1,018 nt of DNA from Naegleria gruberi (lineage: Eukaryota), in the NCBI GenBank assembly GCA_000004985.1, contig GG739614.1; one strand, given 5' to 3'. The notes beneath the pieces were generated by a model. That model worked only from the letters and a program-made list of their open reading frames with translations, did no database searches and was not told the origin of the DNA. Both the position numbers and the translations under genes were made by a program. Below are positions 1 to 1,018 of this stretch, in pieces (the stretch's first letter is position 1; each line of letters opens with the position of its first letter).

Positions 1-287
1 ATATGACCATATTTTTGACTGAAATTTTTTAAAATTTTTGTCCTCACTTCATTTCTAGCCGATTTTAAAATAACCAAATACTGTAAAACATTATATTCCT
101 CTTGTAATATATGCATAAAATCGATTAAAAAAATTAACCCGTTTCTACCCAATATATTCTTTATAATAGACCTGTATACTCAATTATACTACCATTAAAT
201 CGTCTAAATCGAATGTAAAAAAAGTGAATTCCGAAAGTCACTATATTTATAATCAAATTAAATCTATGGACACCGGTCTCTTAATCG

Positions 288-305
288 GAATCGCCTGAAT
301 CGCCC
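288..305 (+). repeat. 9-bp tandem direct repeat GAATCGCCT-GAATCGCCC inside G+C island A
   Basis: Exact 8-mer GAATCGCC at 288-295 and 297-304. A third TGAATCGC lies at 376-383, and AATCG also occurs at 283-287. Confidence 0.7.
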
Positions 306-312
306 TCCTTCA

Positions 313-323
313 TTTTTTTTTTT
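313..323 (+). repeat. T11 homopolymer tract, present in copy 1 only
   Basis: It reads CA-T11-GAAAACG. The equivalent stretch in copy 2 (684-696) is CACTTCTATTTGT, the same length but heteropolymeric. Confidence 0.9.
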
Positions 324-488
324 GAAAACGTTAGCTACGCGATACATTCATTGATTATGCAATTACGGAACCGTCTGAATCGCAGCCGTTCGGGAGTTGG
401 GTACCTCAAAAAATTGATATTATTATATATCATTGTATAGTCAAATAACTATTATATCAAAAATGGCTAGAACCCAGCCGTTCAAAAG

Positions 489-516
489 TTGACAATGATT
501 TTTATGAATATATATC
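489..516 (+). promoter_or_regulatory. Sigma70-like promoter candidate: TTGACA (489-494), 16-bp spacer, TATATC (511-516). An A-rich stretch lies upstream and TG sits at 505-506
   Basis: The -35 is a perfect consensus. The -10 matches TATAAT at 4 of 6 positions. -10-like hexamers are common in AT-rich DNA, so specificity is low. Confidence 0.3.
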
Positions 517-660
517 TATCTATTATCTATATAACCTTTTGTAAAGATTTTATTTTATAGAAATTGATTTTTGAGCATGTTTCAAACATAAAAAAAGTGA
601 ATTCCGAAAGTCACTATATCTATAATCAAATTAAATCTATGGACACCGGTCTCTTAATCG

Positions 661-678
661 GAATCGCCTGAATCGCCC
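661..678 (+). repeat. 9-bp tandem direct repeat GAATCGCCT-GAATCGCCC (copy-2 equivalent)
   Basis: Identical to 288-305 at the +373 offset. The third TGAATCGC lies at 749-756. Confidence 0.7.
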
Positions 679-861
679 TCCTTCACTTCTATTTGTGAAA
701 ACGTTAGCTACGCGATACATTCATTGATTATGCAATTACGGAACCGTCTGAATCGCAGCCGTTCGGGAGTCGGGTACCTCAAAAAATTGATATTATTATA
801 TATCATTGTATAGTCAAATAACTATTATATCAAAAATGGCTAGAACCCAGCCGTTCAAAAG

Positions 862-889
862 TTGACAATGATTTTTATGAATATATATC
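862..889 (+). promoter_or_regulatory. Copy-2 equivalent of the promoter candidate: TTGACA 862-867, TATATC 884-889. It faces the right flank
   Basis: Same sequence at the +373 offset. It sits about 60 bp upstream of the ATG at 950, which opens a frame running off the window. Confidence 0.3.
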
Positions 890-947
890 TATCTATTATC
901 TATATAACCTTTTGTACAGATTTTATTTTATAGAAATTGATCCTTGA

Positions 948-974
948 GCATGTTTCAAAAACCCAAAAACATGC
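948..974. other. Inverted repeat / potential hairpin: GCATGTTT (948-955), 11-nt loop, AAACATGC (967-974)
   Basis: Perfect 8-bp complementary arms, but only 3 G:C pairs. Neither strand has a T-run after the stem, so it is not a canonical intrinsic terminator. It spans the right boundary of repeat copy 2. Confidence 0.5.
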
Positions 975-1018
975 ACTTCGGGTCTCTGACTTCATGGTTG
1001 TCTATTTGCGGAACTGTT
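950..1018 (+). CDS. Possible 5' end of a flanking ORF (MFQKPKNMHFGSLTSWLSICGTV...), open to the window edge
   Basis: ATG at 950 with an in-frame stop upstream (TGA at 938-940). The frame is open through 1018. There is no recognisable Shine-Dalgarno sequence and only 23 codons are visible. This call is mutually exclusive with the minus-strand call below. Confidence 0.15.
   Translation, partial: MFQKPKNMHFGSLTSWLSICGTV
955..1018 (-). CDS. Possible 3' end of a minus-strand ORF entering from the right (...TVPQIDNHEVRDPKCMFLGF*), stop TGA = complement of 955-957
   Basis: Minus-strand frame open from 1017 down to 958, ending at the stop complement of 955-957. Only 20 codons are visible and I recognise no motif in them. 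Confidence 0.15.
   Translation of the reverse strand, partial: TVPQIDNHEVRDPKCMFLGF

What the first reader, a model, noticed from the sequence alone, without database searches (positions are those of the whole stretch)
217..972. Near-identical head-to-tail duplication of a ~373-bp non-coding unit
Copy 1 (217-589) and copy 2 (590-972) match at about 97.6%: 9 substitutions over ~370 bases plus one 10-bp indel, with unique sequence on both sides. The unit carries no substantial ORF. The duplication is therefore either a recent tandem duplication of an intergenic regulatory or ncRNA region, or two adjacent insertions of a small non-autonomous element. The divergence is low, which suggests the event is recent or that the copies are homogenised by recombination. 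Tandem ncRNA paralogues such as sRNA pairs are a known outcome of this kind of event, although that is inference here.
Basis: seen in the sequence. Interest (0 to 1): 0.6.

Follow-up and report, generated by a model that had tools for sequence, protein, structure and literature searches.

The report
Duplicated spacer unit, Naegleria rDNA plasmid
The window is non-coding spacer from the circular ribosomal-RNA plasmid of a Naegleria gruberi-type amoeba, and its 373-bp head-to-tail duplication is a real spacer repeat present in one copy in some strains and two in others; a repeat of this size is already reported, and its most notable content is two short sequence boxes conserved across Naegleria species.

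Summary
The duplication is real. The period is 373 nt, copy 1 is 216-588 and copy 2 is 589-961.

The window is not bacterial. It matches at 99% the non-ribosomal spacer (NRS) of a 13.8-kb circular eukaryotic rDNA plasmid (CERE) of the Naegleria gruberi group. It is read antisense to the rRNA genes, and the array lies 1.23-1.97 kb upstream of the 18S gene.

Related assemblies carry two copies (L002, L003) or one (L001, L006, L009). Flanks are near-identical (0-3 mismatches in 272 nt). This is a local copy-number polymorphism, not two transposon insertions.

No ORF, Rfam match or RNA-folding signal supports an ncRNA gene.

Only two short boxes of the unit are conserved in other Naegleria CEREs. 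Their consensus is AACTYYYGAACGGCTG(GGTTYTAG). They are nearly always in rDNA-sense orientation and cluster upstream of the 18S gene. Modules carrying these boxes are duplicated independently in N. fowleri and in one further CERE.

The best reading is a spacer subrepeat made and lost by unequal recombination or slippage. Its probable effect is to change the number of sites for a DNA-binding factor. Whether that factor acts in Pol I termination, fork pausing or origin function is inferred, not shown.

A 371-bp NRS repeat is already published for N. gruberi EGB, so novelty is low.

The parts
1..215 (-). Unique spacer between the array and the 18S gene (18S-proximal side). Window position 1 lies about 1,014 nt upstream of the 18S 5' end.
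   Evidence: Window 1-1018 equals L002 14248-13231 on the minus strand. The L002 18S gene starts at 15262. This flank is identical in L001 and differs at 1-3 positions in L002, L006 and L009.
216..588 (-). Copy 1 of the 373-nt spacer unit (proximal to the 18S gene), carrying the T-run variant at 313-322.
   Evidence: The same two-copy structure is present in L002 and L003.
589..961 (-). Copy 2 of the 373-nt unit (distal). Five substitutions (620, 771, 917, 942, 943) occur only in this window, and all are changes to C.
586..589 (.). Junction between the copies. There is no microhomology, and one base (C587) is not templated by either flank.
   Evidence: (printed junction and flank sequences).
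962..1018 (-). Unique distal flank. Together with the end of copy 2 it forms the hairpin GCATGTTT-N11-AAACATGC (948-974).
   Evidence: It has one mismatch (1008) against L001, L002, L006 and L009.
465..491 (-). Box 1 in copy 1. In rDNA sense it reads CAACTTTTGAACGGCTGGGTTCTAGCC.
   Evidence: Coordinates. It is conserved in L012 (40 nt, 87.5%, E 2e-7) and resembles N. fowleri TGAACGGCTCGTTTCTAG.
838..864 (-). Box 1 in copy 2.
366..401 (-). Box 2 in copy 1. In rDNA sense it reads CCCAACTCCCGAACGGCTGCGATTCAGACGGTTCCG.
   Evidence: Coordinates. It is conserved in L015 (23/24, E 2.5e-6) and L012 (16/16). A third 34-nt copy lies just distal to the array (L001 1679-1712).
739..774 (-). Box 2 in copy 2. 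It carries one substitution private to this window (771), at a position that is A in 17 of 24 boxes.
286..303 (-). Half-box in copy 1 (CGGAATCGCCTGAATCGC on the window + strand). It shares the GCGATTCAG part of box 2 but lacks the AACGGC core.
659..676 (-). Half-box in copy 2.
313..322 (.). Variant cluster. Copy 1 has TTTTTTTTTT where copy 2 (686-695) has CTTCTATTTG. Single-copy alleles carry one form or the other.
492..588 (.). AT-rich tail of the unit (GC about 18-25%). It recurs at 865-961 and is among the most AT-rich stretches of the whole spacer.

Best explanation
The window is part of the non-ribosomal spacer (NRS) of a Naegleria gruberi-group circular extrachromosomal rDNA element (CERE). 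This is a plasmid of about 14 kb that carries the cell's only rRNA cistron at thousands of copies per cell. The window is read antisense to the rRNA genes. The 373-nt head-to-tail duplication lies 1.23-1.97 kb upstream of the 18S gene, and about 0.33-1.08 kb upstream of the point where the AT-rich spacer turns into the GC-rich, presumably transcribed, leader. It is a copy-number-variable spacer subrepeat, with one copy in some strains and two in others. It is most likely created and removed by unequal homologous recombination or replication slippage among the many plasmid copies (inferred). It encodes no protein, and nothing indicates a structured RNA. Each unit carries two genus-conserved, orientation-fixed boxes (core GAACGGCTG) plus a half-box. 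The duplication therefore raises the number of full boxes in this stretch from three to five. My inference is that the boxes are binding sites for a sequence-specific DNA-binding protein. The core AACGG fits a Myb-type recognition sequence, the class used by the Pol I terminator and fork-barrier factors Reb1 and TTF-I. Such a factor could stop read-through or spacer transcription, could pause replication forks ahead of the promoter, or could mark the plasmid origin. Fork pausing at such sites would also explain why box-bearing modules have duplicated repeatedly in this genus.
For: Identity of the locus. L001 carries eukaryotic LSU, 5.8S and SSU rRNA genes plus a GIR1 ribozyme. L002 carries a single rDNA cistron and repeats itself with a period of 13,799 nt. 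The window matches L002 at 99.0% over all 1018 nt without gaps. The neighbouring ORFs fall in 90% clusters with N. gruberi CERE proteins BAF74738.1, AUH25139.1 and AUH25140.1. The intron endonuclease is closest to those of Naegleria italica, N. philippinensis and N. andersoni. Copy-number polymorphism. Two copies are present in the window, L002 and L003, and one copy in L001, L006 and L009, all with near-identical flanks. Logan contig L010 stops exactly one k-mer into the unit, as expected where a junction exists, whereas Logan contig L009 crosses a single unit without a break. Single-copy alleles carry either the copy-1-type or the copy-2-type cluster, as unequal crossover at different points would produce. 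No gene or RNA. (folding z-scores -1.28 and -0.04). Boxes. The only parts of the unit conserved in other Naegleria CEREs are box 1 and box 2. The pattern AACTYYYGAACGGCTG, derived from the window alone, gives 4 hits in L012 (0.05 expected) and 6 in L015 (0.03 expected). AACGGCT occurs 22 times in sense and 2 times in antisense orientation in the 4.3 kb upstream of the 18S gene across five CEREs, and not at all in the L002 rDNA. In an unbiased screen it is the only GC-containing source of 7/8-mers recurrent in both the N. gruberi-type and N. fowleri spacers. Positions flanking the core are also conserved across 24 distinct boxes. Recurrent duplication. N. fowleri TY has a 196-nt x2.3 array at -2057..-1610. 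L016 has 357-nt segments 588 nt apart at 84% identity. Both carry boxes. Literature. CERE spacers are known to be repeat-rich, and the N. gruberi EGB spacer is reported to hold repeats of 34-371 bp (PMC5805870). These sizes equal my BLAST self-hits for this motif and unit. Tandem-repeat copy number also varies among N. fowleri strains (PMC11075319).
Against: Nothing here shows protein binding, transcription termination, fork pausing or origin activity. The position of the Pol I start site in Naegleria is unknown to me, so 'upstream of the promoter' rests only on the AT-to-GC switch. The exact position of the mapped N. gruberi origin (a 2.1-kb NRS fragment, Mullican 2019) could not be retrieved, so overlap with the unit is untested. 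L016 has no match to the strict 16-nt pattern, only the shorter core. The AACGG resemblance to Myb sites comes from my own knowledge and is weak evidence. Some single-copy contigs come from short-read assemblies and could in principle be collapsed. The duplication could be selectively neutral.
Confidence: 0.75

Rival explanations
1. The unit is, or contains, the CERE replication origin. The duplication would then give two adjacent origin modules, as in the Tetrahymena rDNA minichromosome, where two origins sit in a tandem 430-bp duplication upstream of the rRNA promoter.
For: The geometry is similar: a tandem duplication of about 400 nt within the 2 kb upstream of the rRNA gene on an extrachromosomal rDNA, each copy carrying short conserved elements that recur nearby (Tetrahymena description in PMC9967165). 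Each unit ends in one of the most AT-rich stretches of the spacer. Perfect 15-nt and near-perfect 14-nt inverted repeats lie just distal to the array. A single origin has been mapped somewhere in the N. gruberi NRS (PMC13315211).
Against: The position of the mapped origin is not known to me. There is no yeast ARS consensus match in the window or in L002. The unit has no complementarity to rRNA of the kind used by Tetrahymena ORC. One-copy alleles are evidently viable, so the second copy is dispensable.
Confidence: 0.25
2. The duplication is a neutral accident in a repeat-prone spacer with no functional consequence. The boxes matter, if at all, independently of their copy number.
For: One-copy and two-copy forms coexist among near-identical CEREs. 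CERE spacers are 31-65% repeats (PMC5805870, PMC7714845). Outside the boxes the unit is not conserved between species.
Against: Box-bearing modules were duplicated independently in three of the five CEREs examined. This suggests either selection for box number or a local mechanism that promotes duplication.
Confidence: 0.35
3. The two units are tandem paralogous non-coding RNA genes, or spacer-promoter transcripts.
For: Spacer transcripts are known in other eukaryotic rDNAs (own knowledge). A short hairpin followed by a T-run occurs once per unit on the rDNA-sense strand.
Against: There is no Rfam match even at E<=10, apart from a chance miRNA hit. There is no tRNA. Folding energy does not differ from shuffled controls on either strand. 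The unit shows no similarity to the promoter-proximal region, so it is not a promoter copy. Only about 25-40-nt boxes are conserved between species, not an RNA-sized segment.
Confidence: 0.08
4. The pattern reflects two adjacent insertions of a small non-autonomous mobile element.
For: The two near-identical copies have sharp boundaries.
Against: There are no terminal inverted repeats or target-site duplication. Alleles have one or two copies, never none. There is no other copy on the plasmid. A core-motif scan of 241 million metagenome records found only this locus, and the scans of viral and prokaryotic genome collections found nothing.
Confidence: 0.03
5. The duplication is an assembly artefact in the window's source.
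For: Several short-read contigs break inside the unit (L008, L010, L011), which shows that it is hard to assemble.
Against: The same two-copy structure, with the same junction and the same variant cluster, appears in two other assemblies from different samples (L002, L003). L010 breaks exactly where a true junction predicts. A clone-based Sanger sequence of N. gruberi EGB reports a 371-bp repeat (PMC5805870).
Confidence: 0.03

Closest known systems
Repeats in the non-ribosomal sequence of the Naegleria gruberi CERE (NEG-M AB298288; EGB MG699123, PMC5805870)
   Same: It is the same kind of molecule and very probably the same locus. The flanking ORFs cluster with the N. gruberi CERE proteins. 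A contig encoding the exact NEG-M ORF is 100% identical to window 1-245. The published repeat size range of 34-371 bp equals my self-alignment lengths for the box-2 motif (34 nt) and the unit (371 nt).
   Different: I could not read the GenBank records, so identity with the annotated 371-bp repeat is inferred from size and context only. The published note does not mention copy-number polymorphism or conserved boxes.
Tandem and direct repeats of the Naegleria fowleri CERE spacer (PMC7714845, PMC11075319, PMC13398248 Data S1)
   Same: The spacer is repeat-laden, and strains differ by one repeat unit (a 167-nt insertion in a tandem repeat). A 196-nt x2.3 array lies at -2057..-1610 from the 18S gene and carries the same GAACGGCT box.
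   Different: The unit sequences are not homologous outside the box, and the period and copy number differ.
Tetrahymena thermophila rDNA 5' non-transcribed spacer, tandem 430-bp Domains 1 and 2 with type I elements (PMC9967165)
   Same: Both are extrachromosomal rDNAs with a tandem duplication of about 400 nt within 2 kb upstream of the rRNA start, each copy holding a short element that recurs nearby in the same orientation.
   Different: Origin activity and ORC binding are demonstrated in Tetrahymena and are untested here. No sequence relationship is shown. Tetrahymena rDNA is a linear palindrome, whereas the CERE is a circle.
Intergenic-spacer subrepeats of chromosomal rDNA (Xenopus 60/81-bp enhancers, mouse 140-bp repeats, Drosophila 240-bp repeats; own knowledge)
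   Same: These are head-to-tail subrepeats upstream of the Pol I promoter. They vary in copy number through unequal crossover and carry factor-binding motifs.
   Different: Those arrays usually have many copies and often contain promoter duplications. Here there are only one or two copies and no similarity to the promoter-proximal region.
Pol I terminator and replication-fork-barrier sites bound by Myb-like factors (yeast Reb1, mouse TTF-I Sal box; own knowledge)
   Same: They are short, orientation-dependent, multi-copy spacer elements that include a promoter-proximal copy. The box core AACGG resembles the Myb recognition core YAACNG.
   Different: The box consensus matches neither the Reb1 site nor the Sal box. 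The binding factor and its activity are unknown, and the boxes cluster upstream of the 18S gene rather than directly behind the 28S gene.

Membership tests
Naegleria circular extrachromosomal rDNA element (CERE), non-ribosomal spacer | A circle of about 14-16 kb with a single 18S-5.8S-28S cistron | tested here: met
   L002 repeats itself with a period of 13,799 nt and holds one SSU, 5.8S and LSU set per period. L012 starts and ends inside the LSU gene.
Naegleria circular extrachromosomal rDNA element (CERE), non-ribosomal spacer | Sequence relationship to published Naegleria CERE features | tested here: met
   The ORF upstream of the 18S gene is in the same 90% cluster as N. gruberi BAF74738.1 and AUH25139.1. 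The spacer endonuclease-like ORF is 81% identical to AUH25140.1. The S516 intron with GIR1 and a His-Cys endonuclease is closest to those of Naegleria species.
Naegleria circular extrachromosomal rDNA element (CERE), non-ribosomal spacer | The window itself lies in the spacer of such a circle | tested here: met
   Window 1-1018 equals L002 14248-13231 at 99.0% without gaps, between the LSU end (7263) and the next SSU start (15262).
rDNA spacer tandem subrepeat | Head-to-tail copies with no spacer between them, and non-coding | tested here: met
rDNA spacer tandem subrepeat | Copy number varies between related molecules while the flanks stay constant | tested here: met
   Two copies in the window, L002 and L003, and one copy in L001, L006 and L009. 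Caveat: read-level support could not be checked.
Replication origin module of Tetrahymena type (duplicated domain with ORC-binding elements) | Initiation of replication mapped inside each copy | not testable with these tools
   This needs 2D gels or nascent-strand mapping. The paper mapping the N. gruberi origin is not held.
Replication origin module of Tetrahymena type (duplicated domain with ORC-binding elements) | An element complementary to an rRNA fragment carried by ORC | tested here: not met
   The longest exact match of the unit to the rDNA is 11 nt, no more than for shuffled units.
Yeast-type ARS | An 11-bp ARS consensus WTTTAYRTTTW | tested here: not met
   There is no exact match in the window or in L002. 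One 1-mismatch hit is fewer than the 2.9 expected by chance.
Pol I terminator / fork barrier bound by a Myb-like factor | A short, oriented, multi-copy spacer element conserved between species | tested here: met
   (22 sense against 2 antisense; 4 and 6 hits against 0.05 and 0.03 expected).
Pol I terminator / fork barrier bound by a Myb-like factor | Binding by a Reb1/TTF-I-type protein, with termination or fork arrest at the site | not testable with these tools
   This requires biochemistry, run-on assays or 2D gels.
   The replicon is eukaryotic. There is no Rfam family. Folding z-scores are -1.28 and -0.04. Promoter-like sites are no more frequent than in shuffled sequence.
Non-autonomous transposable element (MITE-like) | Terminal inverted repeats, target-site duplication, dispersed copies and empty sites | tested here: not met
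   There are no inverted repeats in the window, no duplication of flank bases at the boundaries, no other copy on the circle and no empty allele.

The most novel reading that the evidence does not exclude
The GAACGGCTG boxes carried by the duplicated unit are the so far unidentified cis-elements that control the Naegleria rDNA plasmid. They would act either as origin or fork-pausing elements or as Pol I terminators that shield the promoter on a circular template. Recurrent lineage-specific duplication of box-bearing modules (373 nt in the N. gruberi type, 196 nt in N. fowleri, about 590 nt in a third CERE) would then be driven by fork stalling at these sites. This would parallel the Tetrahymena D1/D2 origin duplication and yeast barrier-stimulated rDNA recombination.
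Probability: 0.3. Interest if true: 0.55.

Novelty: already known. Interest (0 to 1): 0.3.

Why it matters
The duplication adds little by itself. Naegleria rDNA plasmids are known to have repeat-laden spacers, and a 371-bp repeat is already reported for N. gruberi. The comparison does give something usable. A box of about 24 nt, conserved in sequence, orientation and approximate position in five otherwise unalignable Naegleria spacers, including that of the pathogen N. fowleri, is a concrete candidate for the plasmid's replication or transcription control element. Groups working on CERE-based vectors and on CERE maintenance as a drug target state that these elements are unknown (PMC13315211, PMC13398248). 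Natural one-copy and two-copy alleles offer a ready-made dosage comparison.

Tried and rejected
1. BLAST of the whole window against the plasmid and phage collections in distant mode gave no match.
2. Scans of the viral and prokaryotic genome collections with the 26-nt core pattern gave no match. This fits a eukaryotic source.
3. Rfam at E<=10 gave only a chance mir-154 hit at 18 bits against a gathering score of 52. ARAGORN found no tRNA.
4. Translation with genetic code 4 produced no longer frames.
5. The yeast ARS consensus, reported twice in the EGB spacer, is absent from the window and from L002.
6. The spacer-promoter idea failed: the unit has no significant similarity to the 445 nt between the array and the GC-rich leader.
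7. The unit shows no complementarity or identity to rRNA above chance.
8. RNA folding of either strand did not differ from shuffled controls.
9. Papers on the mapped N. gruberi origin (Protist 2019), the Plasmid 2021 review and Clark & Cross 1987 are not held. The supplements of PMC12845041 do not contain the 636-bp origin fragment. Overlap of the unit with the mapped origin therefore stays open.
10. I considered that the one-copy contigs might be collapsed assemblies. I judged this unlikely for the k=31 Logan contig L009, because a junction would break the contig as it does in L010. It cannot be excluded for L001 and L006.
Full report
**1. The observation**

Tandem Repeats Finder reports a single array at 216-959 with period 373, 2.0 copies, 97% matches and 0% indels. 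The repeat finder reports one direct pair with spacing 373 and no inverted repeats. Sliding the sequence against itself by 373 nt gives copy 1 = 216-588 and copy 2 = 589-961. Identity is 363/373. The ten differences are at 247, 313, 316, 318, 322, 398, 544, 569, 570 and 587.

The ungapped alignment needs one mismatch instead. No ORF exceeds 35 aa, and every frame is interrupted under genetic codes 11 and 4.

**2. What the locus is**

The window has no match among plasmid or phage records. A 26-nt degenerate pattern covering an internal sub-repeat found nothing in viral contigs or in prokaryotic genomes. It found one metagenome contig, L001.

L001 carries eukaryotic LSU, 5.8S and SSU rRNA genes. 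Its SSU gene contains a GIR1 branching ribozyme followed by a His-Cys-box homing endonuclease ORF, which together form a twin-ribozyme intron. The endonuclease is most similar to those of Naegleria italica, N. philippinensis and N. andersoni.

An endonuclease-like ORF in the spacer led to two further contigs, L002 and L003. L002 repeats itself with a period of 13,799 nt and has one rDNA cistron per period, so it is a circle.

The GC-rich ORF between the window and the 18S gene sits in one 90% cluster with N. gruberi proteins BAF74738.1 (plasmid AB298288) and AUH25139.1 (MG699123). The spacer ORF is 81% identical to AUH25140.1.

This is the Naegleria closed circular extrachromosomal rDNA element (CERE). 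It is present at about 4,000 copies per cell and is the sole site of rRNA genes (PMC5805870, PMC7714845).

Window 1-1018 equals L002 14248-13231 at 99.0% without gaps, on the strand opposite to the rRNA genes. With the 18S gene starting at L002 15262, window position p lies at -(1013+p). The array therefore spans -1229 to -1974. The AT-rich spacer changes to a GC-rich (65-73%) stretch at about -895, which presumably is the external transcribed spacer.

**3. One copy or two**

L002 and L003 come from two different samples. Both contain the same two-copy array, with the same junction and the same four-site cluster. Their copies differ at only five sites.

L001, L006 and L009 have near-identical flanks (0-3 mismatches in 272 nt) but a single unit. 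Three other contigs stop inside the unit.

L010 is 100% identical to window 1-245 and encodes the exact N. gruberi NEG-M ORF. It ends at 245 = 215+30, which is where a k=31 graph must branch if a second context (the junction) precedes base 216. The k=31 contig L009 instead crosses one unit without a break. I read this as a genuine one-versus-two copy polymorphism, although read-level confirmation was not possible.

Single-copy alleles come in two kinds. L001 has the copy-2-type cluster CTTCTATTTG, and L006 and L009 have the copy-1-type T-run. Unequal crossover at different points within a two-copy array would yield exactly these two products. Alternatively, the array could have formed between two pre-existing alleles. 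In either case the locus gains and loses units.

The junction shows no microhomology and has one untemplated base, C587. There is no allele without the unit, there are no terminal inverted repeats, and there is no other copy on the circle. This excludes the mobile-element reading.

**4. Not an RNA gene**

Rfam at E<=10 gives only a chance miRNA hit, and no tRNA is found. Minimum free energies do not differ from dinucleotide shuffles, with z = -1.28 on the plus strand and -0.04 on the minus strand. Bacterial promoter-like sites are at the shuffle level and are irrelevant in a eukaryote.

**5. What the unit contains**

In window orientation, CTGAATCGC occurs eight times on one strand of the L002 circle and once on the other. 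All occurrences lie in the spacer, and four of them are in the array.

The more informative motif emerged from a cross-species comparison. The N. fowleri TY CERE sequence is printed in Data S1 of PMC13398248. An unbiased screen looked for 7- and 8-mers present at least four times in both spacers. It returned only AT-only words, one other word (AAAACCT) and words derived from GAACGGCTG. AACGGCT is present 6 times in sense and 0 in antisense orientation in the N. gruberi-type spacer. It is present 11 times in sense and 2 in antisense in the N. fowleri spacer. It is absent from the L002 rDNA.

Three further complete Naegleria-type CEREs were fetched through intron-endonuclease homologues: L012 (N. 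andersoni type), L015 and L016. Aligning the unit to their 4.3-kb upstream regions gives significant matches only at two places:
- **Box 1:** AACTTTTGAACGGCTGGGTTCTAGCCATTTTTG, 40 nt at 87.5%, E 2e-7 in L012.
- **Box 2:** AACTCCCGAACGGCTGCGATTCAG, 23/24, E 2.5e-6 in L015.

The pattern AACTYYYGAACGGCTG was taken from the window alone. With up to two mismatches it gives 4 hits in L012 (0.05 expected, 0 of 200 shuffles) and 6 in L015 (0.03 expected). It gives none in L016, which keeps only the core.

Across the five CEREs, AACGGCT is 22 sense against 2 antisense within 4.3 kb upstream of the 18S gene. The 24 distinct boxes also share flanking positions, giving the consensus AAcTyyyGAACGGCTGgGtTT.AG.

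In window coordinates, on the minus strand, box 1 is 465-491 and 838-864. Box 2 is 366-401 and 739-774. A half-box lacking the core is 286-303 and 659-676.

**6. Recurrent duplication**

N. fowleri TY has its own array, 196 nt x2.3 at 98% identity, at -2057 to -1610. It carries TGAACGGCTCGTTTCTAG. L016 has two 357-nt segments 588 nt apart at 84% identity, each with a box. The three duplicated units are unrelated outside the box. In all five CEREs the box nearest the 18S gene lies roughly 340-510 nt upstream of the AT-to-GC switch.

**7. Mechanism**

Three things are shown. The unit is a spacer subrepeat with variable copy number. It carries genus-conserved boxes in a fixed orientation. Such modules duplicate repeatedly.

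The rest is inferred. The boxes are probably protein-binding sites whose number the duplication changes from three to five. Fixed orientation in unrelated sequence contexts argues for an orientation-dependent function. My first choice is a Pol I terminator or replication-fork-pausing site bound by a Myb-like factor. The core AACGG fits the Myb recognition core, and Reb1 and TTF-I are Myb-like proteins (own knowledge). On a circular template such sites would shield the promoter and origin from read-through transcription. Fork stalling at them would promote local duplication and deletion.

The second choice is an origin module comparable to the Tetrahymena 430-bp D1/D2 duplication (PMC9967165). 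This could not be tested because the coordinates of the mapped N. gruberi origin are not in the held literature. Negative checks were the yeast ARS consensus, a promoter copy and rRNA complementarity.

**8. Comparison with what is known, and novelty**

The CERE, its repeat-rich spacer and strain-to-strain repeat-unit differences are all published (PMC5805870, PMC7714845, PMC11075319). The N. gruberi EGB announcement lists spacer repeats of 34 to 371 bp. These are the lengths BLAST gives here for the box-2 motif and the unit. The duplication itself is therefore already known. I found no description of the conserved oriented box or of independent duplications of box-bearing modules in the papers I could read, but I could not read the 2019 origin paper or the 2021 review.

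**9. Verdict**

The feature is real and is correctly described as a recent local tandem duplication of non-coding DNA. It is an ordinary, already reported kind of rDNA-spacer repeat. The conserved box gives it modest added value. Interest is 0.3.

Noticed in passing
L001 13282-14434 versus L002 1463-3482: Two CEREs that are about 99% identical around the window differ in their 18S gene. L001 has the S516 twin-ribozyme intron (GIR1 at 14046-14242 plus a 254-aa His-Cys endonuclease at 13315-14079). L002 has an uninterrupted 18S gene of 2,020 nt. This is an intron presence/absence polymorphism, and here it goes with the one-copy versus two-copy spacer state.
   Followed up: partly
L001 6341-7408 (minus strand); L002 7861-8916: The endonuclease-like ORF (PF05551) in the spacer downstream of the 28S gene is called a likely pseudogene in the EGB paper. 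It is nevertheless intact at 344-355 aa in contigs whose proteins are 99%, 81% and 58% identical (P0001-P0003), which suggests it is maintained.
   Followed up: partly
window 620, 771, 917, 942, 943, 1008: All substitutions found only in this window lie in its second half (620-1008). Five are T or A changed to C and one is T changed to G. The first 619 nt have no private change. The cause could be true variation in copy 2, sequencing error or something else, and it is unknown.
   Followed up: no
L002 13064-13133 and 13148-13207 (57-227 nt beyond the distal end of the array): A perfect 15-nt inverted repeat (ATATGACACAACAGG / CCTGTTGTGTCATAT, 40 nt apart) lies here. It is followed by a 14-nt inverted repeat formed by one antisense and one sense copy of the CTGAATCGC motif (32 nt apart).
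   Followed up: no
window 948-974 and 575-589: The unit ends in the left arm of a hairpin, GCATGTTT-N11-AAACATGC, whose right arm lies in the distal flank. At the copy 1/copy 2 junction this is replaced by the near-perfect palindrome ATGTTTCAAACAT.
   Followed up: no
L002 14367-15261 (L001 1-897): The GC-rich stretch (65-73% GC) directly upstream of the 18S gene is full of short repeats. It contains a 173-182-aa ORF annotated as a hypothetical protein in N. gruberi. It looks like transcribed spacer rather than a gene. Only its last ~210 nt are conserved with N. fowleri, at 81%.
   Followed up: partly
L001 5658-6298 and 4331-4588: The same spacer holds other tandem arrays: 119 nt x5.4 at 96% identity and about 101 nt x2.3-2.5.
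   Followed up: no
L012 (GCA_013558295.1, contig JACCDN010942333.1): A complete N. andersoni-type CERE sits as a 14.2-kb contig in a very fragmented NCBI genome assembly; the contig's accession number is above 940,000. It may be an amoeba contaminant of that assembly.
   Followed up: no
L016 11247-11534: The LSU gene of this CERE carries a group I intron (Rfam RF00028, 50.4 bits against a gathering score of 50) in addition to the SSU twin-ribozyme intron.
   Followed up: no
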